Assembly (NCBI GenBank): GCA_964354195.1
Contig: CAYGYN010000044.1
Span: 10,655 to 34,654, forward strand
Direction of reading: 5' to 3'
DNA length: 24,000 bases
Source of the DNA: Candidatus Woesearchaeota archaeon
Lineage (GTDB): Archaea; Nanobdellota; Nanobdellia; Pacearchaeales; GW2011-AR1
The notes beneath the pieces were generated by a model that saw only the letters and a list, made by a program, of their open reading frames with translations, was not told the DNA's origin and did not search any database. Both the position numbers and the translations under genes were made by a program. The number at the start of each line of letters is the position of its first letter. Position 1 is the first letter of the stretch. Below, piece by piece: positions 4,575 to 23,841 of this stretch.

Positions 4575-7500
4575 TTAGTTCTTCTTCACCGCCCTCGAGT
4601 AAATTGTCCAGACATTTCTCTGGTCTCTGTCAACAAGTTCTGCAATCTCGCTGAATTTCATTCCTCTTCCCTTAAGATAGACTATTACCGCTTCAAGCAC
4701 AGTGTACTTTCTGTCTCCAAGTATCGAAGAAGGTATGAATATCTCTGTCTTTCCAACATATATCTTCTCCTTTCTCTTCTCCTGTGCTTTGTGGCAGGCT
4801 GTCCAGATTGTCCTCTCATTCCTGTTCAATGCAAGTGCAATCTCATGATAGCTCATTCCAAGATTCTCCTTCATGTACTTGCAAAGAGTTTCGAGAGCTC
4901 CAATTTCTTTGGAGAATATTGTAACTGGAATATTCATTCTTTCTGATTCACTAATCTCTTGAGTTTCTCTCTCAGAAATATCTCTTATAGCTTCCTCAAG
5001 CACCCCAACTTTTTCCAACTCATTTCTCTTTCTCAAATCAGCTTTTATCTTCAGCAGGCCCTCAACCAGGTTCTTTCTGCGTTTCTTCTTCCTATTTCTC
5101 CCACCTGCAAGAGCAAATCCAACAATAAGTATCTTGATTGTCCACGAGCCTTCATTCGCTGTTGAGTATGCCTGCCCGATGAGCTCGCTTCCCGCTTTCC
5201 TTATGCAGAAATAAAGTTGTTCCTGTCCTGTGCTCCCGTCATTGACTGTAAAGTTCCCGCGGGGCAAAAATGCGTCTGTTATGCTTACATAAGCAGAGGG
5301 AGATAATGTTGTTGCTCCGCATTCAGCATTTCCTCCAGTCGCAATTCCAACAGAAAAGTTATTTGCAAACAATGCAAGAAGACTATTGCTCTCTCCATTC
5401 AGGTTCGTTGAGTTTATCTGTATATTTCCAAGAGAGATATTCTGGTTTCCAGTGTTATTCAGGACAATAGGATCATTTGTTGCCGTCTGGTTCACAGCTC
5501 CAGGTGTCAATGAACTAAACGCAAGAGCGCTTGGCGAAGCCACAAATCCAGTAAGCGCATTAACAGTAAAGTAAGTTGAGATGTTTGTAGCCGCAGAACT
5601 GCTCAAGTCCGACACAGAAGCAGTTACATTCCATGCTCCTGCTCCATCAAACCAATACATTTGCACATTACAACTGTAATTGACATAATTTCCAATAGTG
5701 TTAATCTTCGCACAACTCAGATTAGTTCTAAGAGCCTCTCCATCTCTTGTAAAATTAGCCATTGCAGAAGAATCATTCAAATCCGCAGCACCATCGGCAT
5801 CATAAGCTGTGAAATTAACATTAACAGTCGTTGACGCGGGTCCTTCATTCAAATCCACAGCAGGAATTGCGCTCACATAGGTTATCTGAGGAGCTTGATT
5901 AACTGCTCCGAGGTTCACTTTTATAGTCCAGTTATCATTCGCAAATGCAGAATAGCTCTCGTTGTCTCTCGCTTCGCAATTCCAGAGATAAGTTCCATTA
6001 GCAATTCCATTCAATGGGAAAGATGCGCTCATTGATGAATTCGAAGAAAGAGAATTAGTATACATATTCACAATTTCCTGCTCACTTAATGCCCTGTTGA
6101 ATATTGCAACTTCATCTATTGCTCCCGAGAAAGGTCTTCTGCTTGTGCTTGACGTAGAAATAGGCCATATTCTTCCGTTTCCAACAACAAGAGGCAATGT
6201 AGACTGCAATATTGGTCCGCTGAAAGGATTATTTACCGGGAAGTTGGCGCCTGCTCCGTCCTGACTCCCATTCACATAAATAGACACAGTTGTTCCATTA
6301 TATCTCCCGACAACAAAAATCCACTGTCCCTCAGGGAATGTGCCGTTATAATTTGATTCTACCGCGCTGCCTGAAGAATTCCACACCCTGAAGAAAACAG
6401 AAGGTCTTGAACGGTCCACTGCAAGATAATAGCTTGATGAAGAAGCTGAAACAGCAATCTTGTCAAGAATTCTTGCATTTGCGTTATATGTATTGTTAAA
6501 GTTGTTTGCACTCGGCTTTATCCAGGCAGTCACTGTTATTGAACTGCCCATATTGCTCAAAGCAGGATTATCATTTGCATAAAGCGCATTTGGACTGCCA
6601 AAAATATATGCATTTGTTCCCGGGAAAACCCCTGTCTGATTCATTACAGGGCAGAATGACGACGATTCGTTTGAATTGCAATAAACATGATTGCCCAAGC
6701 CGGAAGAATCTGCATAATACGTCAAGTTCTCCCCCAAAAGAGAGTCATTGTTCATATGCAGCCAGAATACCATTGACGAATCATATGAATACTCGCCAGC
6801 ATATGCTATTCTTGTAAGATTCCAAACCCCGCTTGTATTTGTATAAAGGCTTATGTTAGACATTCTATTGACAGTTGTTGCATTGCACTGGAAAGTTATG
6901 TTGCCTGTTGTGCTTGTAGTGCCATTTGGAGGCGAAAGAAGACTTGTCCATATTTGTAAAGGGATAATTGTAAGATTATTCGAGCTCAATGTGCTTCCAT
7001 CCTGATACCCATCATTTGGCGTGACTTGGCAGCTCCAAATATCCCACAAAAATAGCTCGCTGCTGACAATAGTGTTTGTTTTATTTCGGTAAATAGTTCC
7101 AATCTCCTGCGAGGAGAGAGTATAATTAAATATAAGCACGTCATCTATCTCTCCATTGAAGAAATTATTCCAAGGCTGATGCCAGCCTATTCTTGTTCCA
7201 TTTAATCCAGTCAGTGGTGAACCGTTATAACTTCCTATCGCGGCAATACCATTAGAAGCATCAATTCCATCAACATAAATCCTAAAATTAGAAGAAGTTA
7301 CTGCCTGTCCTGATGTTGAATTGAAAACTCCAACTATGAAATGCCAGTTTCCATCATTCACAGTTCTGTTGGCATTAAGCCCTATCCATATTGCATCGGA
7401 ATCCAAGCCTATTGCAGGCACACCTGCTGAAGAATTTGTGCAATAGCTTCCTGGCACACTATTACAAAGAGGACCAATAGCCAAAGTTAAGCTCTTTCCA

Positions 7501-10500
7501 AGCCCGCTTCCCCTGTCATTGATTATAACTCCCTGATTTGCAGATGTCTTGACCCAAGCCGCCAAAGTATATTGCGTGGTTGAATTCTGAACAAAAGGAG
7601 AGATTATTGAACTATTTACCCCGTTGAACTTGTAATCTCCCTTCCCATCATATCCTCCTGTTGAGTTCCAGACAGCCCTGGAAACAACACCATTGTTCCC
7701 AAGCGAATAATCTTTTGTCCAAGTTGAAGTGCTTCCGCCCTCAAACGGCATATTAAGAACAATTATTGATTGGTTATTTAAGTACCAATTATAAATATTC
7801 TTCACTGAATCATTCTCCAAATCAGAAGTGCTTTGATTATAACATGTTAGATTCTCATTTACAGTATTAGTCCCGTAAGTCGAGCTCAAAATCGGTGGAG
7901 TTTGTGTTGGAGGGAAGTTTGGCGCAAGAGCATTGTAAGTTACATTGAAATAAAAGACATCCCAATAAGCAGTGCCTGTTCCAAATGCAGAGCCCCTAAG
8001 CTCTGATTTCATCTGGCTTCTGTTTCCTGAAGCGCCAAAGAAGTTTGAGCATTGCCAGTTCTTCAGAGCAGTCACATTTCGGCAGATTACCCCTGGATTT
8101 GCTGTTATTCCAGGGCAGGTGGAGTTGATTACTGTAAAATTAGTCCCGTTTTGATTGTCAATTGAAATATTGCAGTCAGAAGTTGAAGAAGTTGAAGCCC
8201 ACCATTCAAAGCAGGCAAGCACTTGTGTTATGTTTGAGCAGTTTGTATTTGTTGAATTGAATTCCATTATCTTCACTCCCCCATAACCTCCATTGTTGTA
8301 TCTCTGTGTCTCATAGAACCCATCATTGCATGTCAGCAAGTCAGCCCCTGAACCGCACGCGCTCGGATAAACGCCATCACAGGCAGAGCCGAACGAACCC
8401 TTGGCAGCCCTTTCCTCGGCAACACAGCTGCTCGTTCCCTCTCTAAATCCAGGGTCAGTTGTATTCATGGTGAAATTATAAGTTCCATCTGCAAGCAATG
8501 CGGCATAGGGTGTCCAAATCTCGTCAACGCATGTGCTTGTCGTAAAATTCCAGTTTATGCACTTCTCAAGGATTCTGAAACCTTCTGTTTCCTCGGGCAG
8601 AGACGTGCCATCCGCAACGATAGTAAAGTCAGTGTTATTGATTCGGGGATATACGGAGAATGAGAAATTCTGGGATGCATTTGCCTGGGAAATATCTATA
8701 ATGCTAGTTATGTTTGAGCTTAAATTAAACCCAAGAATATCAATTGTGTTGATAGTGTGATTAACAGGAGCGACATATATGTCATATATGCCTGTTGCAA
8801 GATTGACAGTGTGATTTATCATTGTCTGATTATAAACAACACTTGAAGTTATGTTTGTTATCCTGAGTGTTGCATTTATCCCATTATTCAGAGGGTCATT
8901 GATGGTTATTGTAAAAGTTACATTTTGTATAGGCGCCTGAGTCCCATTTCCAATTGTCAGGTTGTTTGAATTCTTTGTAATTCCGTCATTCTTCCCGTCA
9001 TTCGGAGTTACAGAACATGTCCAGTTCTGCCCTATAGAAAGTTCCTGGCTGACAATTAAATCTGTTCTGCTACTATACAATGCTTGAATTTGCTGTGCTG
9101 ATAAAGTTTTATTATAAATTCTTATGTCATCAATGCTTCCTGTAAATTTTTGTCCTGTCTGGTACTTGTCTCCAATACCCAGCCCATTTGTGTCATCATA
9201 CGTTCCGATTGGTCCATTAAGTGTTGAATTGCCAACTTCCACCCCATTGATATACAATCTCGCTATTGAGCCGTCATAAGTTCCTGCTGCAAAATACCAT
9301 GTATTATCATTGATTGTTTCTGAATTAACACGAGCTGCATCACTAGCATTAGTTACCTTAAATCTGATTATGTTGGTTGTCCCATTAAATTCAAAACCAT
9401 AAACCCCATATGGAGATATATCATTATTTCCATACCATACTATCTTGGCATAAGAGTTTTGGGTGCCGTTTCTTTTAAACCACGCTGCAATAGTTAGATT
9501 ATAAGTTGGTTCTAGATTATCAGAGCTGCCAACAGTTATAAGGTTAGTAATGCCATCAAAACGATAAGCTCCCTTTCCATTATATCCTCCTGTTGAATTC
9601 CATACAGCTCCTGAAACATTTCCATTGTTGCTTAACCCTGAATAATCCTTTGTGTAAGTTGAATTGCTTCCTCCCTCAAAAGGCATGTTCAAAACTTCAT
9701 AAGCCCTGTTATTCAATTTCCAACTGAAAATGTTCTTCACAGAATCCCCGTCAGCGTCATAGGTTGATTTATTGTAGCAAGTCAGGTTCTCACTTGTCAA
9801 ATTAGTCCCAAAAGTTGAATTCAAAATTGGCGTGCTTTGAGTGGGCAGGGTATTTGCGCAGTTATAAGTATATTCTGTGATATTCCCGAAAACAAATTGA
9901 AGAGTGTGATTGCCTCCAGTCAGAACCTTGCTTGTTTCATATCCGCTCTGATTGTCGCAAGTATAATTGAAATAGTGCACGCTGTTAGTTTCGTTAAGCC
10001 ATGTGTAATTCATGGTAGTATTCCCGCACCTTAACTCAAGGAACTGCAAGTCCCCTGACTCATTAAGATACCATGTTGTTCCATTCGATGCAGTTATTGT
10101 AAGATTTGCCTGTCCTGTTGTGTTAAATCCAACTGTCCAGTTTCCATCCACATATGGATAGCTGTAAAGATTGAGTATTATGAGCTGAAGTTCATATGTC
10201 TGGTTTGAGAGATGTTCAACATTCCACTCAATGTAATCAATCAAGCCATTCTCATTCATGTCAGCTGTTGTGAAATTAACGCTCTCTTTTGTTTCATTAA
10301 CCAGATGATAAAGTCTTATCATATCTGGAGAGGCTTCATAAGGCAGTTCACTAAAAGCAGTTATATCTGTATAGTTTAATTCATCAGGGGCTGAGATAGT
10401 TATAATTTTTCCGCTGCTTGTCTCTTCTTCAAAAGCCTCAGGCGCAGGAGTTTCGTAAGAAATCTCATACTGAGTTGCGTTATCCTCAAGACTGACTTCA

Positions 10501-11930
10501 ACAGGCTGCAAAGATTCATTTTGCTCCTCAGAAATAACTCTTCCTGTGAATCCTCTGCCAAATATGCCTTTTATGAAATCCCATAATCTGCTTATAATTC
10601 CATTTCCTTCGTTATCAGAAACAGCTAATCCTGTCACAAAAGCTCTTGCCTGCTCAGGCTTCTCAGTTTGTTCATCAATCTTGTTGACAGAGACATTCTC
10701 AGCCAAAGGCGGAAGCTCGATTGTTATTTCAGCAGGATTTTCGAGTTCAACAACCTTCTTCCATTTGACAGGCTGTCCCACTCTTATTTTCCCGACCTTT
10801 GAAGTGGTTATTGAGACATTTGTCTCGTTTGTTGTAATGTTCTCGGCAAGAGTCACATTCTCGGAGATAGTTAAATCTTCAAGAGGAACAAAAGGAATCA
10901 AGCCATATTCCAATCCAGTTAGTTTTAATCTTGCATTGTCAAGCTCAATCCTCAGGTTATAGAACTCTTTTGTGAGGTTTAATCCAGCCAAGTCGCAGGT
11001 TTCTTCACATATGCTATTAAACTCTCTCAGAGTTATTTCCTGAGTTGTTTCTTCCACAGAGGTTTTATTTTCTTCTGTTATATTTTCAGAAACAGGAGGA
11101 GTCACCTGCTGGGAAATGCTCTCGTTTTGAGGTGTTCCTCCTCCTGTTTGCTCTGAAGATGAAGGTTCTGAGGGCGTAGTTTCTGTAGTTGTTTCTTCTT
11201 CTGTTGGAATCGTTGGTTCTTGTTCTGATGGGGTTCCAGTTGGAGTTTCTGTAGTTGTTTCACTAGGTGTCTCAGTTGGAGTTTCACTTGGACTTTCTTG
11301 GGAGGATTCAGTTGAATCGGAGGAGGACGAATCTGAAGAAGAATCGGAATCGCCGGATGAATCTGATGATGAATCTGAAGAATCAGAGCTTGAATCAGAA
11401 TCAGATGATGAATCAGAAGAACCAGAATCTCCTTCCAATGCAAAACCAGTTATTGTGGTTCTTCTTTTTGCAATATTTGTGCTGTCAACCACAAGCAAAT
11501 TATCAAGATAAATCTTTATCTCTCCGTCTCCTGCAATCAATCCAGACAACTTGACAAAATCAAGTGTCCCATTTTCCTTAAGCGTGAATTCATAGCTCCC
11601 CGAATTATTGAAAACAACATCTGGAGTTTCAAAATAAGTCTTTGCATTTTCCTTTACCACAAACAAATTGAAGCTGGGACTGAAAAAGAAAAAGCTTGCT
11701 ATAAGAATTAAAAAAACCCCTATAAAACCAAAGCGAATCATAGTCTTCTTGTGCTTCTCATATTCCTCAAGAATTATCTGCTGCTGCCAGAGCCTGTGCC
11801 TATTTTCTTCTATCTGCTGTTTATGATAATCAGCAAGCGCCTGGTCTGGGTCATTAATGTATTTCCTAGAATCTTCTATTCTTCTTGAAAGTTCTTCGAT
11901 TAAAACTCTCGCTACGCGAGCATTTCCCAT
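4575..11930 (-). CDS. Giant (2,451 aa) two-pass surface protein: N-terminal cytoplasmic helix, TM, LamG-rich glycoprotein ectodomain, TM, cytoplasmic tandem-HTH tail
   Basis: A single uninterrupted 7,356-nt ORF. TTTATAAG lies 30 nt upstream of the ATG. Domain evidence is listed in the sub-features below. Confidence 0.9.
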   Translation of the reverse strand: MGNARVARVLIEELSRRIEDSRKYINDPDQALADYHKQQIEENRHRLWQQQIILEEYEKHKKTMIRFGFIGVFLILIASFFFFSPSFNLFVVKENAKTYFETPDVVFNNSGSYEFTLKENGTLDFVKLSGLIAGDGEIKIYLDNLLVVDSTNIAKRRTTITGFALEGDSGSSDSSSDSDSSSDSSDSSSDSSGDSDSSSDSSSSDSTESSQESPSETPTETPSETTTETPTGTPSEQEPTIPTEEETTTETTPSEPSSSEQTGGGTPQNESISQQVTPPVSENITEENKTSVEETTQEITLREFNSICEETCDLAGLNLTKEFYNLRIELDNARLKLTGLEYGLIPFVPLEDLTISENVTLAENITTNETNVSITTSKVGKIRVGQPVKWKKVVELENPAEITIELPPLAENVSVNKIDEQTEKPEQARAFVTGLAVSDNEGNGIISRLWDFIKGIFGRGFTGRVISEEQNESLQPVEVSLEDNATQYEISYETPAPEAFEEETSSGKIITISAPDELNYTDITAFSELPYEASPDMIRLYHLVNETKESVNFTTADMNENGLIDYIEWNVEHLSNQTYELQLIILNLYSYPYVDGNWTVGFNTTGQANLTITASNGTTWYLNESGDLQFLELRCGNTTMNYTWLNETNSVHYFNYTCDNQSGYETSKVLTGGNHTLQFVFGNITEYTYNCANTLPTQSTPILNSTFGTNLTSENLTCYNKSTYDADGDSVKNIFSWKLNNRAYEVLNMPFEGGSNSTYTKDYSGLSNNGNVSGAVWNSTGGYNGKGAYRFDGITNLITVGSSDNLEPTYNLTIAAWFKRNGTQNSYAKIVWYGNNDISPYGVYGFEFNGTTNIIRFKVTNASDAARVNSETINDNTWYFAAGTYDGSIARLYINGVEVGNSTLNGPIGTYDDTNGLGIGDKYQTGQKFTGSIDDIRIYNKTLSAQQIQALYSSRTDLIVSQELSIGQNWTCSVTPNDGKNDGITKNSNNLTIGNGTQAPIQNVTFTITINDPLNNGINATLRITNITSSVVYNQTMINHTVNLATGIYDIYVAPVNHTINTIDILGFNLSSNITSIIDISQANASQNFSFSVYPRINNTDFTIVADGTSLPEETEGFRILEKCINWNFTTSTCVDEIWTPYAALLADGTYNFTMNTTDPGFREGTSSCVAEERAAKGSFGSACDGVYPSACGSGADLLTCNDGFYETQRYNNGGYGGVKIMEFNSTNTNCSNITQVLACFEWWASTSSTSDCNISIDNQNGTNFTVINSTCPGITANPGVICRNVTALKNWQCSNFFGASGNRSQMKSELRGSAFGTGTAYWDVFYFNVTYNALAPNFPPTQTPPILSSTYGTNTVNENLTCYNQSTSDLENDSVKNIYNWYLNNQSIIVLNMPFEGGSTSTWTKDYSLGNNGVVSRAVWNSTGGYDGKGDYKFNGVNSSIISPFVQNSTTQYTLAAWVKTSANQGVIINDRGSGLGKSLTLAIGPLCNSVPGSYCTNSSAGVPAIGLDSDAIWIGLNANRTVNDGNWHFIVGVFNSTSGQAVTSSNFRIYVDGIDASNGIAAIGSYNGSPLTGLNGTRIGWHQPWNNFFNGEIDDVLIFNYTLSSQEIGTIYRNKTNTIVSSELFLWDIWSCQVTPNDGYQDGSTLSSNNLTIIPLQIWTSLLSPPNGTTSTTGNITFQCNATTVNRMSNISLYTNTSGVWNLTRIAYAGEYSYDSSMVFWLHMNNDSLLGENLTYYADSSGLGNHVYCNSNESSSFCPVMNQTGVFPGTNAYIFGSPNALYANDNPALSNMGSSITVTAWIKPSANNFNNTYNANARILDKIAVSASSSSYYLAVDRSRPSVFFRVWNSSGSAVESNYNGTFPEGQWIFVVGRYNGTTVSIYVNGSQDGAGANFPVNNPFSGPILQSTLPLVVGNGRIWPISTSSTSRRPFSGAIDEVAIFNRALSEQEIVNMYTNSLSSNSSMSASFPLNGIANGTYLWNCEARDNESYSAFANDNWTIKVNLGAVNQAPQITYVSAIPAVDLNEGPASTTVNVNFTAYDADGAADLNDSSAMANFTRDGEALRTNLSCAKINTIGNYVNYSCNVQMYWFDGAGAWNVTASVSDLSSSAATNISTYFTVNALTGFVASPSALAFSSLTPGAVNQTATNDPIVLNNTGNQNISLGNIQINSTNLNGESNSLLALFANNFSVGIATGGNAECGATTLSPSAYVSITDAFLPRGNFTVNDGSTGQEQLYFCIRKAGSELIGQAYSTANEGSWTIKILIVGFALAGGRNRKKKRRKNLVEGLLKIKADLRKRNELEKVGVLEEAIRDISERETQEISESERMNIPVTIFSKEIGALETLCKYMKENLGMSYHEIALALNRNERTIWTACHKAQEKRKEKIYVGKTEIFIPSSILGDRKYTVLEAVIVYLKGRGMKFSEIAELVDRDQRNVWTIYSRAVKKN
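4578..5099 (-). other. Cytoplasmic C-terminal tail of the giant protein (res 2278-2451) with two tandem sigma-70 region 4 / LuxR-like HTH repeats
   Basis: The tail starts with the stop-transfer cluster RNRKKKRRK and a charged helix. Repeat A (nt 4767-4898): ALETLCKYMKENLGMSYHEIALALNRNERTIWTACHKAQEKRKE. Repeat B (nt 4578-4706): YTVLEAVIVYLKGRGMKFSEIAELVDRDQRNVWTIYSRAVKKN. Both fit the pattern (hydrophobic)x(Y/F)xEIAxxLxRxxRT/NVWTxxxxA. There are no N-X-S/T sequons in the tail. Confidence 0.6.
5100..5150 (-). other. Second transmembrane segment of the giant protein (GSWTIKILIVGFALAGG)
   Basis: Short hydrophobic stretch immediately followed by nine basic residues in ten (RNRKKKRRKN). Coordinates were checked codon by codon against the reverse complement. 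Confidence 0.6.
5139..5894 (-). repeat. Membrane-proximal 252-aa two-domain module of the giant protein (res 2013-2264), paralogous to 14263-15036
   Basis: APQITYVSAIPAVDLNEGPASTTVNVNF...PRGNFTVNDGSTGQEQLYFCIRKAGSELIGQAYS...WTIKI aligns end to end with residues 54-311 of the 311-aa protein, ~60% aa identity by eye. Identical nucleotide runs include GTTGTTGCTCCGCATTCA and ATTCTGGTTTCCAGTGTT. Confidence 0.85.
5907..6947 (-). other. LamG (concanavalin-A-like lectin, Laminin_G_3-type) module 3, nested in a split beta-sandwich
   Basis: Res 1662-2008. Flank SPPNGTTSTTGNITFQCNA...; core SSITVTAWIKP...GQWIFVVGRYNGTTVSIYVNG...FSGAIDEVAIFNRALSEQEIVNMY; closing strand GTYLWNCEARDNESYSAFANDNWTIKV. Confidence 0.7.
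6966..7913 (-). other. LamG module 2 nested in a split beta-sandwich
   Basis: Res 1340-1655. PPTQTPPILSSTYGTNTVNENLTCYNQSTSDLENDSVKNIYNWYL...LNMPFEGGS...YTLAAWVK...GNWHFIVGVF...FNGEIDDVLIFNYTLSSQEIGTIY...WSCQVTPNDGYQDGSTLSSNNLTI. Confidence 0.75.
8031..8573 (-). other. Cys-rich central domain of the giant protein (12 Cys in ~180 aa)
   Basis: Res ~1120-1300. Cys at 1124, 1134, 1169, 1184, 1192, 1201, 1231, 1240, 1253, 1272, 1283 and 1294 by my indexing. No family recognised. Confidence 0.5.
8961..9848 (-). other. LamG module 1 nested in a split beta-sandwich
   Basis: Res 695-990. LPTQSTPILNSTFGTNLTSENLTCYNKSTYDADGDSVKNIFSWKL...LNMPFEGGS...AYRFDG...LTIAAWFK...NTWYFAAGTYDGSIARLYINGVEVG...FTGSIDDIRIYNKTLSAQQIQALY...WTCSVTPNDGKNDGITKNSNNLTI. 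The first ~100 aa are ~65% identical to module 2 by eye. Confidence 0.8.
11145..11429 (-). repeat. Low-complexity acidic linker: Ser/Asp repeats (res 168-207) then Thr/Glu/Pro repeats (res 208-262)
   Basis: GDSGSSDSSSDSDSSSDSSDSSSDSSGDSDSSSDSSSSD followed by ESPSETPTETPSETTTETPTGTPSEQEPTIPTEEETTTETTPSEP. The DNA is an imperfect GAATC(N)GA(N) tri/hexanucleotide repeat. Alternative-frame ORFs here are artefacts. Confidence 0.85.
11673..11738 (-). other. First transmembrane segment of the giant protein (IRFGFIGVFLILIASFFFFSPS)
   Basis: Res 65-86. It is preceded by a 64-aa charged helical segment ending in KHKKTM (positive-inside rule), and no A-x-A cleavage site follows. Confidence 0.65.
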
Positions 11931-11991
11931 ACTTATCTTGTATGTAAATATACTTATAAATCTATTGGTAATACCTATTATTTATGTAATA
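11928..11991 (-). repeat. Promoter-plus-start-codon repeat copy R1 (functional promoter of the giant gene)
   Basis: CATACTTATCTTGTATGTAAATATACTTATAAATCTATTGGTAATACCTATTATTTATGTAATA. It contains the ATG (11930-11928) and the TATA (11953-11960). About 85% identical to R2, which lies 95 bp upstream. Confidence 0.8.
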
Positions 11992-12022
11992 ATATGAGAT
12001 AGGCTATTTGCCAATTAACATC

Positions 12023-12087
12023 CATACCTATCTTGTATGTAAAAGCCCTTTATAAATTTATTGATAATACCTATTATTTATGTAATA
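12023..12087 (-). repeat. Promoter-plus-start-codon repeat copy R2 (duplicated promoter driving a 15-codon micro-ORF)
   Basis: CATACCTATCTTGTATGTAAAAGCCCTTTATAAATTTATTGATAATACCTATTATTTATGTAATA. It has TTTATAAA at 12049-12056 and an ATG at 12025-12023. That ATG opens MDVNWQIAYLILLHK* (12025..11978). Confidence 0.8.
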
Positions 12088-12141: not shown

Positions 12142-13656
12142 TCACTGCTCAAATTTTTCAAGATATTCAGAAGCCTTGCCATCCACAACCATTACTTCCT
12201 TTATTGAATGCACATTGCTGTGCCTCACAAGCGCGTTCTTTTTGTTCAAGTTCTTCGCAATGTGCGGCTCAAGCGCAATCAGCCAGCCATATATCTTGTT
12301 ATCCTCAAGATAAACTTCACTCACATGCCCTAGTTTGTTCCCATTCATCCCATATACCCGCAAATTCATTGCATCTGTGAGCCCATTCAGTTTTCCCTTG
12401 TGCTTTCTCTTCGCTCCAGCCCCAATAACTCCTCTCTCAAGCAGAGGAATCAGATATCTCACCAGAACAATTGAAATAAGACTAGCAAGCAATGCAATCA
12501 CAAGCATTATCCAGAACAAGTCTATCCAGTTTATTGCAAATACAGTTGTTACAGGGGCAGGCTTTTCCTCCTGTACTTCATCAACATCGCACCTGCCATT
12601 CTGATTTGCATCAAGACAGCATTCTAATCCTCGGGGTATGTAAGGAGAACTGCAGCTTGCGCACGCAATGATTCCTGTCTCGCCTTCACTCTGATTAATG
12701 CATTCAATTATCTGAGGCTGGGAATAATTTGTCTGATAAACTACCCTGGTGCCTCCGCCTCCACCGCCGCCAACAGTCACTATCACAACAGGTTCAGGCG
12801 ATTCATCAGCAGAATAATTCGAAAATCCAGTTACTCTGAATCTTAAATTTCCGGATGAATAATCTTCTTTGGTGCAAATGCTATCTGGGCAAACAACGCC
12901 ATTCCTCAATATTCTTGGATTTGTGAAATTCAATCCATAAAGCCATAATGTTGAAGAAACATTGAAATTAGGCAGCTCGTCAGCATTTAATTCAATCCTA
13001 TTGAATAATATATTCACATTGTTCTCAACGTCAACCACTCCGTCAAAATTATGGTCCTTATCATCAGTCACATTCAAACAATCGTCAAACTCTATTTTTC
13101 CATAATTAACATCTTCAAGAATAGTGTTGCAGAAATTCTGCAAATCTTCAAATGTATATGTATAGAAATCTGTTGAGCCTCCGCTGAAAGATGTCTTGAA
13201 TTCCCCCAGGTAGATAATTCTCAACAGCGTTGTATTGACAACAAACTGCAATCCCTCGCTAGTCTGCCCCTGGCTGTTGTTTGCATAAACCCTGATAATA
13301 TGGGTTCCATCTCCAGCAGTGAAATGAAGAGAATGGGGTATATTTGGGATATAGGTGTCTGCTGAGCCATCAAGAACATACCACGCATCATAAGCGCTGT
13401 AAACACTATAATTCAAAAGCAAACTTTCATTTATGTAAGTTCCGTTCTTAGGGGAATAGATAATTACCCCTGGAAGGCTTACAACATAAACCCTCAAATC
13501 AACAGGCTGTTCTGTCGCCTCACCTGTAACCGAAACGCTGCCAGTTATGCCTGCGCGCGAGCCATTCTCAACAACCAATATTGCAGATGCATAAGAACTG
13601 GAAATAATTAAAAAAACAATTGCTAAAAACAGCGATAAAATCAAATACCTCTTCAT
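12142..13656 (-). CDS. Type-I surface glycoprotein with C-terminal TM helix and cytoplasmic PRC-barrel domain
   Basis: Start refined to the ATG at 13656 (MKRYLILSLFLAIVFLIISSSYASA signal). The ORF-track start is a TTG 4 codons upstream, and an ATTTAAAT box lies 30 nt upstream of the ATG. The ectodomain is sequon-rich with a Gly7 linker and a Cys cluster (CINQ...CASCSS...CCLDANQNGRCD). TM helix LFWIMLVIALLASLISIVLVRYLIPLL (12439-12519). The 98-aa tail LNGLTDAMNLRVYGMNGNKLGHVSEVYLEDNKIYGWLIALEP...VMVVDG (12181-12390) fits the PRC-barrel pattern. Confidence 0.85.
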   Translation of the reverse strand: MKRYLILSLFLAIVFLIISSSYASAILVVENGSRAGITGSVSVTGEATEQPVDLRVYVVSLPGVIIYSPKNGTYINESLLLNYSVYSAYDAWYVLDGSADTYIPNIPHSLHFTAGDGTHIIRVYANNSQGQTSEGLQFVVNTTLLRIIYLGEFKTSFSGGSTDFYTYTFEDLQNFCNTILEDVNYGKIEFDDCLNVTDDKDHNFDGVVDVENNVNILFNRIELNADELPNFNVSSTLWLYGLNFTNPRILRNGVVCPDSICTKEDYSSGNLRFRVTGFSNYSADESPEPVVIVTVGGGGGGGTRVVYQTNYSQPQIIECINQSEGETGIIACASCSSPYIPRGLECCLDANQNGRCDVDEVQEEKPAPVTTVFAINWIDLFWIMLVIALLASLISIVLVRYLIPLLERGVIGAGAKRKHKGKLNGLTDAMNLRVYGMNGNKLGHVSEVYLEDNKIYGWLIALEPHIAKNLNKKNALVRHSNVHSIKEVMVVDGKASEYLEKFEQ

Positions 13657-13679
13657 AAAAATATCCAAGCAACTATATT

Positions 13680-14259: not shown

Positions 14260-15195
14260 TTATGATATCTTCAACGTCCATGCTCTAGAGGCTGAGTCTG
14301 ATGAATATGCCTGTGCTGTAAGTTCAGAACCAACTTTCTTTATGCAGAAGTATACTTGCTCCTGCCCCGTTGAGCCGTCATTGACTGTGAAATTCCCTCT
14401 TGGTAAAGTCGCGCTGCCTATCGCAGTGTATACTGAAGGAGCCATGGTTGTTGCTCCGCATTCAACAGGAGGAGAACCCCCAGTAGTTACGCCAACACTG
14501 AAGTTATTGGAATAGATTTTTCTATTGGCATCTAACTCTCCAAGAAGGTCAGTGGTATTCAACTGAACATTTCCTGCTGTAATATTCTGGTTTCCAGTGT
14601 TGTTTAATACAATTGGATCATTTGTAGAAGTCTGATTCACGCTTCCAGGAGTTAACGATGCCCATGTCAGAGAAGCCGGCGAAGATACAAATCCAGTAAG
14701 CGCATTAATTGTGAATGTAGTAGAAACATTTGAAGCAGCAGAATTGCTTAAGTCCTTCACAAATACAGTCACATTCCAGGTTCCTGAGCCATCAAACCAG
14801 TACATAGGCACGCTGCAAGTGTAATTAACTGTAGTCGCAGTACTGCCCGCATTGGTGCATGAAACAGCCCTTACAACTTCTCCAGCCCTTGTAAAGTTAA
14901 CCATCGCAGAACTATCATTCAAATTCCCTGCCCCGTCAGCATCACTTGCCACGAAGCTCATAACTACTGTAGTGCTTGTAGGCCCTTCATTCAAATTCAC
15001 CGCGCTTATAGCAGAAACAGAAGCAATTGTTGGAGCAGTGTTTGATATTGTGACATTAACATTTACGCTTTGCTGTGTTACTTTCCCAGTTATCTTTCCA
15101 AACCAGTCAAACATCCCGGCAGACGCAAATGACGAGACTAATAATACAGAAGCTAGAACCACAACAAAAACAAGCGTTCCTCTTTTCGCATTCAT
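14260..15195 (-). CDS. Secreted two-domain protein, paralog of the giant protein's membrane-proximal module (no anchor)
   Basis: Signal peptide MNAKRGTLVFVVVLASVLLVSSFASAG. Residues 54-311 align with giant-protein residues 2013-2264. The protein ends (WTLKIS*) exactly where the giant protein enters its TM helix. TTTATAAA lies 29 nt upstream of the ATG. Confidence 0.85.
   Translation of the reverse strand: MNAKRGTLVFVVVLASVLLVSSFASAGMFDWFGKITGKVTQQSVNVNVTISNTAPTIASVSAISAVNLNEGPTSTTVVMSFVASDADGAGNLNDSSAMVNFTRAGEVVRAVSCTNAGSTATTVNYTCSVPMYWFDGSGTWNVTVFVKDLSNSAASNVSTTFTINALTGFVSSPASLTWASLTPGSVNQTSTNDPIVLNNTGNQNITAGNVQLNTTDLLGELDANRKIYSNNFSVGVTTGGSPPVECGATTMAPSVYTAIGSATLPRGNFTVNDGSTGQEQVYFCIKKVGSELTAQAYSSDSASRAWTLKIS
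14263..15036 (-). repeat. Paralogous copy of the 5139-5894 module
   Basis: See 5139-5894. Same orientation, ~9.1 kb away, with nucleotide similarity clearly visible by eye. Confidence 0.85.
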
Positions 15196-15224: not shown

Positions 15225-15467
15225 CATTTCTCTGATACTATATAGGTTTTGATTTGCTCTCTTTTATTTGCTCTTTACTATTAATTCTGACTCGCTCTTG
15301 TCTTGAAGCTTCTCATCTGCGTTAAATACTATTAATTCGGATTCACCTTCACTGCGGGCTCCATTTAAAGGAAGATGACGTGTCAAGAAACCTTGGTTTT
15401 GAACCATCAGCAGATGCAATAGAAGGAGGGGTGACATATCAGGGGAACTATGAGTTCCCTTATATAA

Positions 15468-15539
15468 TGGCTCTACGAGGAATTGAACCTCGATTATCCG
15501 GTCCGAAGCCGAAGGGTCTATCCATTAACCTATAGAGCC
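15468..15539 (-). tRNA. tRNA-Arg (anticodon TCG)
   Basis: The reverse complement folds as a 72-nt cloverleaf. Acceptor GGCTCTA/TAGAGCC plus discriminator A. D stem GGTT/GACC. Anticodon stem TTCGG/CCGGA with loop CT-TCG-GA. T arm CGAGG-TTCAATT-CCTCG. No encoded CCA and no intron. Confidence 0.9.
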
Positions 15540-15582
15540 AAAACTATTAAATAACTGGCTTTTTTAATACTATTTATAAGAG

Positions 15583-18397: not shown

Positions 18398-19249
18398 TCA
18401 CAAGAAATTTATGCAAGTCGCACTGCAGTTCATATACCCGCCGGTGTCTCCTCCGCCATTATAATAGGCATAAACTTTCCATGCACCACTATCTTGATAA
18501 ACTTTGCATTGCCAAATATCGTGCTTGCGGTCTGTGACATCATCATATAATTTAAAGGACTCTTGAGTTATTGCGCAGAAATCCCAATCTCCAGTGCAGT
18601 TAGTTATTGTTGCGCATCCTGAAGCGCAACCATTTGTGGCATTAGCCGAAAATGTTGCTCTAACCGGCGCTGTCCCTCCCCCTCCTCCAGATAATGCACA
18701 ACATTGCACAGCAGATATGTAAAATCCTCCGCAACCGTTTATAGAATATCTATATTTAACCCCAGTTACAACCTTTCCGCTCGGGCAGCTGCTCCATGTT
18801 AGGCTGCTTACTGCTGCATCGCATCCATTGACAGCAACTTCTTGGCAATCAGAAGTAGTTATTGGCCCGCCAGTTCCATCAGCAGGCCACGCATTCCTGC
18901 AATCGCTGCCAATGCAGACTCCTGCTGCTTTCATGAAATTAGTTGTGCTCACATTTCCAATGTTATAATTAATATCGCTCCCACTCTGACTCCATAAACT
19001 TCCTCCGCCTCCAGGAGGCCATGCTGTCCTGCAATCCATTGTTCCTGAGTTGTTCATGCAGAATCCCGCAGCAATAATATTGGTAGGCACTCTGACGCTC
19101 CAGTTCATCTCATCAACCGAATGCCCAAACACAGCAGGATTTGCAGGAACAGAATTATAAGCATAAACCCCCACAAATCCAATCAGAAATAATCCGATTA
19201 TCAATAAAGAAATAAAGTACTTCCTCTCCAAATTAACCTCTATTTTCAC
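18398..19249 (-). CDS. Signal-anchored Cys-rich secreted protein, MKIEVNL-leader family member P1 (GTG start)
   Basis: The leader (V)KIEVNLERKYFISLLIIGLFLIGFVGVYAYNSVPANPAVFGHSVDEMNWS is homologous to P2 and P3. Two C-x(3-8)-C-R-x-AWP motifs, Gly4-5 linkers and 17 Cys. An extra C-terminal Cys-rich domain follows AVQCCAL. Confidence 0.8.
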   Translation of the reverse strand: MKIEVNLERKYFISLLIIGLFLIGFVGVYAYNSVPANPAVFGHSVDEMNWSVRVPTNIIAAGFCMNNSGTMDCRTAWPPGGGGSLWSQSGSDINYNIGNVSTTNFMKAAGVCIGSDCRNAWPADGTGGPITTSDCQEVAVNGCDAAVSSLTWSSCPSGKVVTGVKYRYSINGCGGFYISAVQCCALSGGGGGTAPVRATFSANATNGCASGCATITNCTGDWDFCAITQESFKLYDDVTDRKHDIWQCKVYQDSGAWKVYAYYNGGGDTGGYMNCSATCINFL

Positions 19250-19298: not shown

Positions 19299-20048
19299 TT
19301 AGCTTATAACAATCTTGCAGCAATATCCCCATGCATGCATATAGGAGCCGTCACTCAATCTTCTTGCTCTTACATAATTAGGAGTTACTTCATATTCTGT
19401 ATTTTCCCTTTCATTGTTTGACTTCAGGAAATGGAAGCCTGCAACAGTCTTGCCAATTGCAGAGCAATTTGCAAGTGACCATTGGGGAAGAGGCTTATTC
19501 CCGCCGTCAACCCATGTGCAATTCTGATAAGATAATGTTCCGCCGTTCAGAGAAGGCCAGCTTGTTTGGCAGTTTCCTGAAAGGCAAATTTGTGACGAGT
19601 TTACTGTGCCTGATGTTGCAACAAGGCTTTCTGCTTTAATCCCTCCAGAAACAACAAGTTTTGTGTCAGGGCTTGAAGTGCCAATTCCGATGTTTCCCGT
19701 TGAGCCATTAATCACAATTCTCTCAACATGCGCGACCTCATCCCCGATAATCAAATTACCATTATTATTTGCATAGAAAGAAAACTTCTTGCCGGTGTTT
19801 TCGACAAAAATTCCTGCAAATCCTGTCCCATTTATATGCAATTTTGCCCCAGGAACACGAGTGCCTATTCCCTCGCTCCCGTTTACCAAGATATTTGAAT
19901 TAACAGACTGTCCCCAATCCACTTCATTAGGTGAGTGCCCATAAACCTCTGGGCTGTAAGCATAAACTCCTACAAAACCAACAATAACTAATCCAATTAG
20001 AATGCTAAAAACCAAAAACTTCTTATTCAACTTTACCTCTATTTTCAT
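19299..20048 (-). CDS. Signal-anchored tail-fibre-like repeat protein, MKIEVNL-leader family member P2
   Basis: MKIEVKLNKKFLVFSILIGLVIVGFVGVYAYSPEVYGHSPNEVDW. GIGT repeats (GIGTRVPGAKLHINGT, NIGIGTSSPDTKLVVSGG). ICLSGNCQTSWP motif. Ends GYCCKIVIS. An ATTTAAAT box 30 nt upstream overlaps the dys stop codon. Confidence 0.8.
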   Translation of the reverse strand: MKIEVKLNKKFLVFSILIGLVIVGFVGVYAYSPEVYGHSPNEVDWGQSVNSNILVNGSEGIGTRVPGAKLHINGTGFAGIFVENTGKKFSFYANNNGNLIIGDEVAHVERIVINGSTGNIGIGTSSPDTKLVVSGGIKAESLVATSGTVNSSQICLSGNCQTSWPSLNGGTLSYQNCTWVDGGNKPLPQWSLANCSAIGKTVAGFHFLKSNNERENTEYEVTPNYVRARRLSDGSYMHAWGYCCKIVIS

Positions 20049-23810: not shown

Positions 23811-23841
23811 ATCCAAGAAAGACAAGTCTATTATTTAAACT

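What the first reader, a model, noticed from the sequence alone, without database searches (positions are those of the whole stretch)
4578..5150. Tandemly duplicated sigma-70-region-4/LuxR-like HTH units behind a poly-basic stop-transfer signal
Repeat A is LCKYMKENLGMSYHEIALALNRNERTIWTACHKAQEK. Repeat B is VIVYLKGR-GMKFSEIAELVDRDQRNVWTIYSRAVKK. They align position for position, sharing GM-x-(Y/F)-x-EIA, R-(N/D)-x-R-(T/N)-(I/V)-WT and a basic C-terminal helix. They are separated by ~20 aa. The pattern 'hydrophobic helix - short turn - S/T-x-x-EIA - turn - recognition helix with R..TVW' is the classic r4/GerE-type tri-helical HTH. Two HTHs in one chain would allow a monomer to read a direct or inverted repeat without dimerising. 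That makes sense for a protein immobilised in a membrane. The 95-bp-spaced direct repeat in its own promoter region (11928-12087) is an obvious candidate target, though this link is pure inference.
Basis: partly seen in the sequence, partly recalled or inferred. Interest (0 to 1): 0.85.

Follow-up and report, generated by a model that had tools for sequence, protein, structure and literature searches.

The report
Giant surface protein carrying its own regulator
A 2,451-residue surface protein of a tiny DPANN archaeon ends in a cytoplasmic pair of DNA-binding helix-turn-helix units, and comparison across many genomes suggests they bind a conserved 17-bp site flanking the TATA box of the protein's own gene, pointing to an undescribed self-regulating circuit.

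Summary
ORF 4575-11930 (-) encodes a 2,451-aa protein. It has an N-terminal cytoplasmic helix and TM, a ~2,175-aa LamG-rich ectodomain, a short hydrophobic segment, the run RNRKKKRRKN, a helical linker and two homologous HTH units.

- **Duplication:** unit A against unit B scores 73, against 20±3.6 for shuffles. Profile-profile probability is 99.9%.
- **Fold:** the tail passes Pfam Sigma70_r4_2. AF2 gives pLDDT 94 and pTM 0.86. Each unit superposes on ECF sigma region 4 at 0.6-0.9 Å.
- **Family:** more than 2,200 clusters, seen here only in Woese-/Pacearchaeota-type DPANN archaea. The module sits at the extreme C-terminus of 400 to >3,400-aa surface proteins. Otherwise it is a small soluble protein, usually overlapping a surface-protein gene that is often giant.
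- **New result:** a 17-bp pseudo-palindrome, TACWTAY-N3-RTARGTA, flanks the TATA box of these genes in dozens of species. Of 70 hits in 1.1 Mb, 57 fall in 16 kb of such promoters. The site's symmetry tracks the likeness of the two recognition helices. The window has four copies, because its promoter is duplicated.

Best reading: an autoregulatory DNA-binding module, here membrane-tethered. No binding was measured, and the second TM is unusually short. This is a new variant of a transmembrane transcription regulator.

The parts
4575..11930 (-). Gene for the 2,451-aa giant surface protein (stop codon at 4575-4577)
   Evidence: ORF list and translation. Pfam Laminin_G_3 1.7e-65 in three stretches, plus Sigma70_r4_2.
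11742..11930 (-). N-terminal cytoplasmic helical segment, aa 1-63. It is a shortened version of a ~90-aa domain (MGRTRLAKA...GKTIxEWIxYYDxYIxEC) conserved in homologous giants.
   Evidence: Comparison of N-termini from 17 fused giants and 17 partners of stand-alone modules. No Pfam family matches.
11670..11738 (-). TM1 / signal anchor, aa 65-87 (IRFGFIGVFLILIASFFFFSPSF)
   Evidence: It is the most hydrophobic segment of the protein, with Kyte-Doolittle 2.85 over 15 aa.
5145..11669 (-). Ectodomain, aa 88-2262. It holds an S/T/D-rich linker, three LamG (ConA-like) domains, many N-x-S/T sequons and a C-terminal beta-domain ending in SWTIKI.
   Evidence: Pfam. The N- and C-terminal blocks are 29-48% identical to homologues, while the middle is variable. 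The last domain is 62% identical to the 311-aa paralogue at 14260-15195.
5100..5144 (-). Short hydrophobic segment, aa 2263-2277 (WTIKILIVGFALAGG). It is the presumed second membrane crossing.
   Evidence: It is the second most hydrophobic segment, with KD 2.49 over 11 aa but only 1.67 over 15 aa. The pattern is conserved in 39 of 39 fused homologues. AF2 models a helix here at low confidence.
5070..5099 (-). Polybasic run RNRKKKRRKN, aa 2278-2287 (positive-inside / stop-transfer determinant)
   Evidence: Read directly from the sequence. A poly-K/R run is present in all 39 fused homologues.
4938..5069 (-). Helical linker, aa 2288-2331. It is a shortened form of a linker conserved in homologues (ELKEKYxLxKKE repeats).
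   Evidence: Alignment A1. AF2 models two long helices at pLDDT 81-94.
4752..4937 (-). HTH unit A, aa 2332-2393. It has a short strand (IPVTIF) and three helices. The recognition helix ERTIWTACHKAQEK lies at nt 4776-4817.
4578..4745 (-). HTH unit B, aa 2396-2451. It has a short strand (IFIPSSIL) and three helices. The recognition helix QRNVWTIYSRAVKK lies at nt 4581-4622.
11930..11946 (-). Proximal candidate operator TACATACAAGATAAGTA. It lies between the TATA box and the start codon, and its last A is the A of the ATG.
   Evidence: Pattern search found 4 hits against 0.02 expected. The position is conserved in 17 aligned promoters.
11954..11960 (-). TATA box TTTATAA of the proximal promoter, starting 30 nt upstream of the ATG. 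This implies a leaderless or near-leaderless mRNA.
   Evidence: Sequence and alignment A3. In 624 control genes of related genomes, TTTAWA peaks at -30 to -26 from the ATG.
11972..11988 (-). Distal candidate operator TACATAAATAATAGGTA, upstream of the TATA box
12024..12087 (-). Tandem duplicate of the whole promoter. It carries operators at 12025-12041 and 12068-12084, a TATA box at 12050-12056 and an ATG at 12023-12025 that opens a 15-codon ORF running to 11978.

Best explanation
The last 120 residues form a compact pseudo-dimer of two sigma-region-4-type HTH units in a single chain. This module most likely binds the 17-bp 7-3-7 pseudo-palindrome TACWTAY-N3-RTARGTA, with one unit on each half-site.

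The site occurs twice per promoter in genes that encode the module. One copy lies upstream of the TATA box. The other lies between the TATA box and the start of a leaderless mRNA. The module therefore appears to regulate its own gene or operon. Occupancy of the proximal site should block RNA polymerase, giving negative feedback. The distal site may add cooperativity or activation.

In this window the module is the cytoplasmic C-terminal tail of a giant LamG-rich surface protein whose N- and C-termini both face inward. That would make the protein a transmembrane transcription regulator, and regulator would then be made 1:1 with surface protein.

**Shown:** the duplication, the fold and profile, the size and taxonomic range of the family, the fusion or adjacency to surface-protein genes, and the conserved, promoter-specific, co-varying DNA motif.

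**Inferred:** direct binding, the sign of regulation, the membrane topology at the short second hydrophobic segment, and any dependence on a signal.
For: **Fold and profile**
- Pfam Sigma70_r4_2 is above its cut-off for the tail, and 24 of 25 homologues match.
- AF2 gives pLDDT 94.4 and pTM 0.86 for the two-unit module.
- Single units match ECF sigma region 4 at 0.6-0.9 A, including the SigE r4 / -35 DNA complex 2h27.
- The module is basic: 21 K+R against 14 D+E.

**Family and gene linkage**
- The family has 2,240 clusters at 50% identity, 1,170 of them at E<=1e-30.
- It gave 311 loci in species-representative genomes. The top 80 are all Woese-/Pace-/Nanoarchaeota-type.
- In 39 loci the module is the extreme C-terminus of 400 to >3,400-aa ORFs.
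- In the rest it is a 110-260-aa protein. Most of these overlap (by -4 to -56 nt) or closely abut a co-directional gene for a membrane or surface protein. In 22 of 48 stand-alone genes the neighbour is >=800 aa.

**The DNA motif**
- Unbiased 7-mer enrichment upstream of module genes: TTACATA in 28 of 61 against 12 of 624 controls (p 1e-23), ATACATA in 23 against 5, and ATAAGTA in 23 against 10.
- Of 70 motif hits in 1.10 Mb, 57 lie in the 260-nt same-strand upstream windows, which total 15.9 kb. At least 9 of the other 13 lie in intergenic DNA next to a module or giant gene.
- Seventeen promoters, from the window and 15 related loci, align with 25 invariant columns. These columns fall almost entirely in the two sites and the TATA box.
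- The window has 4 hits, all at 11930-12084, against 0.02 expected.

**Co-variation of protein and site**
- Proteins with unlike units (RTIWTaY and RNIWTIY) have the asymmetric site in 28 of 31 cases and never the palindrome.
- Proteins with two alike units have the perfect palindrome TACTTACAaTGTAAGTA in 5 of 7 cases and never the asymmetric site.
- Proteins with a degenerate unit A keep only one canonical half-site, in 4 of 4 cases.

**Site geometry**
- The TATA box lies about 30 nt from the ATG, as in leaderless genes of these genomes.
Against: - No binding or expression data exist, so the protein-DNA link is correlative. The co-variation is also not phylogenetically independent.
- The second hydrophobic segment is only about 10-15 residues and contains a Lys. 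The 311-aa paralogue shows that WTIKI is the last strand of the ectodomain. The cytoplasmic location of the tail therefore rests on three things: the positive-inside rule, the absence of signal peptides in stand-alone homologues, and the DNA evidence.
- Foldseek E-values for the whole module are weak (>=0.04), and no solved structure shows the tandem packing.
- 19 of 61 upstream regions had no recognisable site. Several of those module genes lie downstream of the giant gene or have doubtful starts.
- The window's 5' region is duplicated, so the roles of the four sites cannot be told apart.
- Whether a membrane-tethered tail can reach the promoter has not been tested.
Confidence: 0.62

Rival explanations
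1. Signal-released regulator. The tail is inactive while tethered, or while sequestered by the N-terminal cytoplasmic domain. Proteolysis or a conformational change triggered by the ectodomain then frees it. This resembles ECF sigma/anti-sigma pairs or Notch-type regulated intramembrane proteolysis. It refines the best explanation rather than contradicting it.
For: Stand-alone loci have the layout of a sigma/anti-sigma operon. An r4-type gene overlaps a gene whose product has a 60-130-aa cytoplasmic helical N-domain, one TM and a large ectodomain. That ~90-aa N-domain is conserved in the fused giants. The G[SA]WxI[KR] motif next to the membrane is highly conserved.
Against: No protease gene or cleavage motif was identified. 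The N-domain has no anti-sigma or other Pfam match. Some partners of stand-alone modules have no cytoplasmic N-domain at all, only lipoprotein-like signals. The window's N-domain is truncated.
Confidence: 0.15
2. DNA-membrane tether. The module does bind the sites, but its main role is to hold the gene's own locus at the membrane. This could support co-transcriptional, co-translational insertion of a very long product, or anchor the chromosome at the contact site. Controlling transcription would be secondary.
For: The sites come in arrays of 2-5 copies, like centromere or iteron repeats. The module is fused to the membrane protein itself. The products are extremely long, up to 5,919 aa.
Against: Soluble stand-alone homologues use the same sites. 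The sites sit at the classic positions for archaeal regulators, flanking the TATA box and overlapping the transcription start.
Confidence: 0.1
3. The HTH units are protein-interaction or structural domains. The conserved motif is then bound by another factor, or is a special core-promoter element for highly expressed surface-protein genes.
For: Sigma region 4 also makes protein contacts with anti-sigma factors and the beta-flap, as in the Foldseek hits 3vep and 1or7. There is no experimental binding.
Against: The motif is essentially confined to promoters of module-encoding genes. Its symmetry and half-sites co-vary with the two recognition helices. The recognition helices are the most conserved residues, with invariant R..R..W. 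The other surface-protein genes in the window lack the motif.
Confidence: 0.08
4. The tail is extracellular or vestigial, because the hydrophobic segment is too short to span the membrane.
For: The hydrophobic core is only 8-12 residues in all homologues. AF2 confidence in this segment is low.
Against: The tail is the best conserved part of the protein. It follows 8-12 consecutive K/R residues. Stand-alone homologues have no signal peptide. The protein starts N-in with one TM, so an even number of crossings gives a consistent topology.
Confidence: 0.04

Closest known systems
Region 4 of ECF sigma factors (Pfam Sigma70_r4_2; SigE 2H27, SigR 5FGM, SigD 3VEP)
   Same: The profile match is above the Pfam cut-off. 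Each unit has the same three-helix HTH at 0.6-0.9 A rmsd. Shared sequence features include GxSYxEIA and T(I/V)xxxxxRAxxK.
   Different: There is no sigma region 2 and no bacterial RNA polymerase to bind. The host is an archaeon. Two units sit in one chain and pack as a pseudo-dimer. An invariant Trp and two Arg mark the recognition region. The module acts, by inference, as an operator-binding factor and not as an initiation factor.
NarL/NarP and RcsB (LuxR/GerE-type HTH) on inverted heptamers
   Same: They belong to a related HTH superfamily, and Foldseek hits RcsB, SdiA, LiaR and VpsT. NarL dimers bind inverted heptamers TACYYMT in a 7-2-7 arrangement (PMC4886647, PMC4549865). The site here is TACWTAY-N3-RTARGTA, a 7-3-7 arrangement.
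   Different: There is no GerE profile hit, no fourth (dimerisation) helix and no receiver domain. The 'dimer' is covalent, and the spacer is 3 bp rather than 2. The resemblance between the sites is a lead, not a test.
Transmembrane transcription regulators (ToxR, TcpP, CadC; archaeal examples) as defined in PMC10269533
   Same: A predicted DNA-binding domain, a TM region and an extracytoplasmic domain occur in one protein, and regulation would proceed from the membrane.
   Different: The DNA-binding domain is at the extreme C-terminus, after a second and very short crossing. The HTH is a tandem r4-type and not an OmpR-type winged helix. The 'sensor' is a ~2,175-aa adhesin-like ectodomain. The apparent target is the protein's own promoter.
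Giant LamG-bearing surface proteins of DPANN archaea (for example nanohaloarchaeal 'SPEARE' proteins, PMC10266531)
   Same: These are very large membrane-anchored proteins with LamG/ConA-like domains in a small-genome DPANN archaeon. They are thought to mediate host contact.
   Different: The nanohaloarchaeal giants carry a VirB4/TraG-like ATPase domain. This family carries a tandem HTH tail and a conserved promoter operator instead. No sequence relationship beyond LamG was tested.
Cbp1, the Sulfolobus CRISPR-repeat-binding protein (2LVS), and the archaeal r4-type regulator 8HNO/8HNP
   Same: Cbp1 is an archaeal protein with several HTH repeats in one chain that binds repeated DNA (Foldseek rank 2-3). 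8HNP is the closest solved archaeal r4-type HTH, at 36-38% identity over 42-47 residues.
   Different: The Cbp1 match is poor (TM 0.36, rmsd about 10 A). The sequence E-value for 8HNO is only 0.08, and the match covers a single unit.

Membership tests
Sigma-70 region 4 HTH domain (Pfam PF08281 Sigma70_r4_2) | Profile match at or above Pfam's gathering score | tested here: met
   The 191-aa tail scores 34.8 bits, the 123-aa module 36.4 bits and the full protein 25.9 bits, against a 25.7-bit cut-off. Of 25 homologues, 24 match at E<=1e-3.
Sigma-70 region 4 HTH domain (Pfam PF08281 Sigma70_r4_2) | Three-helix region-4 fold | tested here: met
   AF2 units have pLDDT 93-98. Foldseek matches 5fgm, 3vep, 6kon and 6dv9 at rmsd 0.6-0.9 A over 43-45 residues with probability 1.00. 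Whole-query E-values are >=0.04.
Sigma factor (sigma-70 / ECF family protein) | Presence of region 2 (core-RNAP binding and -10 recognition) together with region 4 | tested here: not met
   No Sigma70_r2 hit was found anywhere in the 2,451 aa or in homologues. NCBIfam ECF models score far below their cut-offs (20.4 against 42.9). The gene context is archaeal: GatD/GatE, TrmB and deoxyhypusine synthase.
LuxR/GerE-type HTH (Pfam PF00196) | GerE profile match and a four-helix bundle with a C-terminal dimerisation helix | tested here: not met
   There is no GerE hit at E<=1. Each unit has three main helices and no fourth. Only fold-level similarity to RcsB, SdiA and LiaR was found.
Transmembrane transcription regulator (definition of PMC10269533) | A predicted DNA-binding domain in the same protein as at least one predicted TM region | tested here: met
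   The DNA-binding domain is supported. TM1 (aa 65-87) has KD 2.85.
Transmembrane transcription regulator (definition of PMC10269533) | DNA-binding domain on the cytoplasmic side (here this requires a second crossing at aa 2263-2277) | tested here: inconclusive
   The hydrophobic stretch is only 10-15 aa and is followed by 8 K/R in a 10-residue run. The pattern is conserved in 39 of 39 homologues. AF2 models a helix there at low confidence. No topology predictor or experiment was available.
Transmembrane transcription regulator (definition of PMC10269533) | Binds target DNA and regulates transcription while in the membrane | not testable with these tools
   Only comparative evidence exists for a cognate site in the protein's own promoter.
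ECF sigma / anti-sigma-like pair | An r4-bearing protein encoded next to a single-pass membrane protein with a cytoplasmic N-terminal helical domain | tested here: met
   This architecture is seen in many stand-alone loci and, within one chain, in the fused giants.
ECF sigma / anti-sigma-like pair | Homology of the partner's N-domain to an anti-sigma domain | tested here: not met
   Five N-domains had no Pfam match better than E 1.5e-3, all were below the cut-offs, and none was to an anti-sigma family.
DPANN giant LamG surface proteins | Very large membrane-anchored protein with LamG/ConA-like domains | tested here: met
   Laminin_G_3 1.7e-65 in three stretches and Laminin_G_2 2.7e-9. An N-terminal TM is present.

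The most novel reading that the evidence does not exclude
The giant protein is a one-polypeptide outside-in signalling device. Engagement of its 2,175-aa LamG ectodomain, for example by a host cell surface, changes the availability of the cytoplasmic tandem-HTH tail. The change could come from clustering, from release by the conserved N-terminal cytoplasmic domain, or from intramembrane cleavage. The tail then switches the protein's own promoter through the two TATA-flanking operators. This would be an archaeal analogue of anti-sigma/ECF or Notch-type signalling. It would also be the first concrete host-sensing regulatory route proposed for DPANN archaea.
Probability: 0.25. Interest if true: 0.85.

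Novelty: new variant of a known kind. Interest (0 to 1): 0.72.

Why it matters
Very little is known about gene regulation in DPANN archaea, or about how they control the giant surface proteins thought to mediate attachment to hosts. This analysis provides four things:

- a large, lineage-restricted family of DNA-binding modules;
- its probable 17-bp operator and promoter architecture;
- a fusion/fission pattern that ties the module to surface-protein genes, many of them giant;
- protein-DNA co-variation that predicts which unit reads which half-site.

All of this can be tested with a 120-residue recombinant protein and short DNA duplexes, without cultivating the organisms. If the tethered form is active, it would extend transmembrane transcription regulators to a new architecture: a C-terminal, covalent-dimer HTH on a giant adhesin. 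It would also offer a simple 1:1 feedback mechanism for dosing very expensive proteins in cells with tiny genomes.

Tried and rejected
- **Sequence search of solved structures.** The only matches were 8HNO/8HNP at E about 0.08.
- **Source of the window.** The exact giant sequence is not in the protein collection, and the GatE gene could not be traced to a contig. The source organism is therefore inferred only from its relatives, which are Pacearchaeota/Nanoarchaeota.
- **Literature.** Searches covered DPANN with sigma-70 or HTH, giant proteins, membrane-bound archaeal regulators and the motif strings themselves. None found a description of this module or site. Only the open-access library was searched.
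- **Known RNA families.** Rfam found nothing in the promoter region; its only hit in the window is a tRNA.
- **Sigma factor.** Rejected, because there is no region 2 and the host is an archaeon.
- **C-terminal sorting signal (PGF/PEP-CTERM type).** The arrangement of motif, hydrophobic stretch and basic cluster is similar, and there is a weak PEPxxWA-CTERM hit at E 0.17. However, such signals end just after the basic cluster, whereas here 164 conserved residues follow.
- **Transposon or terminal-repeat origin of the motif.** Rejected, because the copies lie only 5' of the genes, flanking the TATA box, and none lie 3'.
- **Internal promoter or start for a separate soluble tail.** There is no motif or TATA box inside the gene, and the Met before unit A is not conserved.
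- **N-terminal cytoplasmic domain.** It has no Pfam family. A single HAAS match at E 0.17 is not significant.
Full report
**The gene and its product**

The finding lies at the 3' end of ORF 4575-11930 on the minus strand, which encodes a 2,451-aa protein. Its layout, from N- to C-terminus, is:

| Residues | Feature | Basis |
|---|---|---|
| 1-63 | helical N-terminal segment | |
| 65-87 | strongly hydrophobic TM (KD 2.85 over 15 aa) | |
| 88-2262 | ectodomain with an S/T/D-rich linker and three LamG domains (Laminin_G_3, 1.7e-65) | |
| 2263-2277 | short hydrophobic segment WTIKILIVGFALAGG | |
| 2278-2287 | polybasic run RNRKKKRRKN | |
| 2288-2331 | helical linker | |
| 2332-2393 | HTH unit A | |
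| 2396-2451 | HTH unit B | |

The neighbouring genes are GatD, GatE, TrmB, deoxyhypusine synthase and UPP synthase. Together with the closest relatives, they place the window in a DPANN archaeon of the Pacearchaeota/Woesearchaeota type.

**Checking the observation**

Both quoted segments are present at aa 2349-2385 and 2415-2450. The two full units align with a score of 73, against 20.0 +/- 3.6 for 5,000 shuffles. Unit-A and unit-B profiles built from homologues match at 99.9% probability, E 2e-34. The quoted segments are 29 residues apart, not ~20.

The pattern G[SA]WxI[KR], then 8-12 hydrophobic residues, then poly-K/R, occurs in all 39 fused homologues.

**What the units are**

- The tail passes the Pfam Sigma70_r4_2 threshold (34.8-36.4 bits against 25.7), and 24 of 25 homologues match.
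- AF2 with a family alignment gives pLDDT 88.5 for the 191-aa tail. For the 123-aa two-unit module it gives pLDDT 94.4 and pTM 0.86. Each unit is a short strand followed by three helices.
- Foldseek superposes single units on ECF sigma region 4 at 0.6-0.9 A over 43-45 residues (SigR 5fgm, SigD 3vep, SigH 6kon). It also hits SigE r4 bound to -35 DNA (2h27) and LuxR-type regulators.
- Whole-query E-values are weak, and no solved chain covers both units.
- There is no sigma region 2 and no GerE profile hit. The units are therefore r4-type HTH domains, but the protein is neither a sigma factor nor a LuxR-family member.

**Conservation**

In an alignment of 37 homologues the units are the most conserved part. 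Invariant residues are concentrated in the turn and recognition helix, giving the signature R..R..W..Y...K. Against full-length homologues, the C-terminal block is the best conserved at 38-48% identity, the N-terminal block is 29-36% identical, and the LamG middle is variable.

**Family and gene neighbourhood**

- A profile search found 2,240 clusters at 50% identity, 1,170 of them at E<=1e-30. Protein lengths reach 5,919 aa, and in the long proteins listed the module lies at or near the C-terminus.
- A scan of species-representative genomes gave 311 loci. The 80 retrieved are all Woese-/Pace-/Nanoarchaeota-type, although a few records carry labels that look wrong.
- In 39 loci the module ends 400 to >3,400-aa ORFs.
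- In the more distant loci it is a 110-260-aa soluble protein. Its gene typically overlaps, by 4 to 56 nt, a co-directional downstream gene. That gene's product has a cytoplasmic helical N-domain, one TM and a large ectodomain of up to >3,300 aa.
- In a few loci the module gene instead follows a giant gene directly.
- Some homologues carry four units.
- Overall, the same module is either fused to, or translationally coupled with, surface-protein genes, many of them giant.

**The DNA element (main new result)**

Upstream regions of module-encoding genes from many species share a 17-bp element. One copy lies upstream of the TATA box. A second lies between the TATA box and the ATG.

- *Unbiased 7-mer test:* TTACATA occurs in 28 of 61 target upstream regions against 12 of 624 controls (p 1e-23). 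ATACATA occurs in 23 against 5, ATAAGTA in 23 against 10, and TACTTAC in 17 against 9.
- *Degenerate pattern scan:* there are 70 hits in 1.10 Mb. Of these, 57 lie in the 260-nt same-strand windows upstream of module ORFs, which total 15.9 kb. At least 9 of the other 13 lie in intergenic DNA next to a module or giant gene.
- *Alignment:* 17 promoters, from the window and 15 related loci, have 25 invariant columns, almost all within the two sites and the TATA box.
- *Core-promoter geometry:* in control genes of these genomes TTTAWA peaks sharply 26-30 nt before the ATG, which indicates leaderless transcription. The proximal site therefore covers the region that RNA polymerase must occupy.

In the window the pattern TACAYANNNNNWRRGTA occurs four times, against 0.02 expected. 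The hits are at 11930-11946, 11972-11988, 12025-12041 and 12068-12084, all on the minus strand, and there are none elsewhere.

**Co-variation of protein and site**

| Protein class | Site found upstream | Count |
|---|---|---|
| unlike units (A: RTIWT[A/S]Y; B: RDQRNIWTIY) | asymmetric TACATAY-N3-RTAAGTA, never the palindrome | 28 of 31 |
| two alike units (RDDRTIWTVY twice) | perfect palindrome TACTTACA(A/T)TGTAAGTA, never the asymmetric site | 5 of 7 |
| degenerate unit A (NEIALAVTY) | one canonical half-site only (ACTTACATA...) | 4 of 4 |

The classes are not phylogenetically independent. Even so, the match between protein symmetry and DNA symmetry is what direct recognition by one unit per half-site predicts.

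The 7-3-7 layout with TAC...GTA ends resembles the 7-2-7 TACYYMT sites of NarL dimers (PMC4886647, PMC4549865). I treat this as a lead only.

**Mechanism**

The best-supported reading is that the tandem HTH is a covalent pseudo-dimer that binds these operators and regulates its own gene or operon. The position of the proximal site argues for repression at high occupancy. The role of the distal site is open.

In the window's protein the module would act from the membrane. That fits the published definition of transmembrane transcription regulators (PMC10269533), but with an unusual architecture.

The tandem arrangement is not an adaptation to tethering, because soluble homologues share it.

A conserved ~90-aa cytoplasmic N-domain is found in the giants and in many partners of stand-alone modules, and it has no Pfam match. 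With the r4-type module, this gives the system the layout of a sigma/anti-sigma pair. Sequestration or release by signal is therefore possible, but it is untested.

**Caveats**

- No binding or expression data exist.
- The second hydrophobic segment is only about 10-15 residues. The 311-aa paralogue at 14260-15195 is 62% identical and ends at WTLKIS (WTIKI in the giant), which shows that this motif is the last strand of the ectodomain. The membrane crossing is therefore inferred, not shown.
- Two structure libraries were unavailable.
- The literature searches found no prior description, but they covered only open-access text.

**Verdict**

The system is a new variant of a known kind: an r4-type HTH acting as a transmembrane, autoregulatory transcription factor on a giant DPANN surface protein. 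It comes with a concrete predicted operator that can be tested directly.

Noticed in passing
window 14260-15195 (-): A 311-aa secreted protein is 62% identical (E 3e-117) to the last ectodomain of the giant protein. It ends at ...AWTLKIS, so it lacks the hydrophobic segment, the polybasic run and the HTH tail. It is a free-standing copy of the membrane-proximal domain.
   Followed up: partly
window 12142-13668 (-): The 508-aa gene directly upstream of the giant gene has the same logic with a different tail. It has an N-terminal signal or TM, an ectodomain, a TM, a basic cluster (KRKHKGK) and a C-terminal PRC-barrel domain (Pfam 22.8 bits against a 21.2-bit cut-off). It is a second surface protein with a cytoplasmic domain.
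   Followed up: partly
window 11978-12025 (-): The duplicated distal promoter copy carries its own ATG. This opens a 15-codon ORF (MDVNWQIAYLILLHK) that runs into the proximal copy's distal operator. It is probably a relic of the duplication, but it could act as an upstream ORF.
   Followed up: no
window 11742-11930 (-); L010, L013, L022, L043, L048 and other giant-gene 5' ends: The giant proteins share a conserved ~90-aa cytoplasmic N-terminal domain (MGRTRLAKA...DG(K/R)TIxEWIxYYDxYIxEC) with no Pfam family. The window's copy is shortened to 62 aa. The same domain heads many partner proteins of stand-alone HTH genes.
   Followed up: partly
window 18398-19249, 19299-20048, 23073-23825 (all -): Three paralogous ~250-283-aa proteins share the N-terminus MKIEVxLxKKF...IGLxxIGFVGVYAY and Cys-rich C-termini. 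One was scanned against Pfam and had no match. They look like a small family of secreted or pilin-like proteins.
   Followed up: no
L018, L039, L050, L057 (upstream of module genes): Some promoters carry 4-5 copies of the 17-bp site in regular arrays, for example a 64-nt period in L050. Duplication of the operator or promoter, as in this window, therefore recurs in the family.
   Followed up: partly
P0001-P0006; L015, L022, L024: Some homologues carry the two-unit module twice, giving four HTH units. In P0003 the second copy is nearly identical to the first, which points to recent internal duplication.
   Followed up: no
L007, L031, L060 (labelled Patescibacteria); L063, L065, L076, L077, L080 (labelled Methanosarcinales): These records carry the DPANN-type module and promoter motif but have bacterial or methanogen taxon labels. 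This probably reflects mis-binning or mislabelling of the assemblies.
   Followed up: no
window 15467-15540 (-): A tRNA-Arg (anticodon TCG) is the only Rfam or ARAGORN hit in the window.
   Followed up: yes
L045 14911-15474, L051 14946-15452, L053 8239-8748, L058 14649-15167: A subfamily has a degenerate unit A (NEIALAVTY in place of RTIWT.Y). Its genes sit upstream of secreted proteins with short, lipoprotein-like signals, which reach >=1,734 aa in L058. Their promoters carry arrays of ACTTACATAATAT-type half-sites. Several genomes hold both this and the canonical type a few kb apart.
   Followed up: partly
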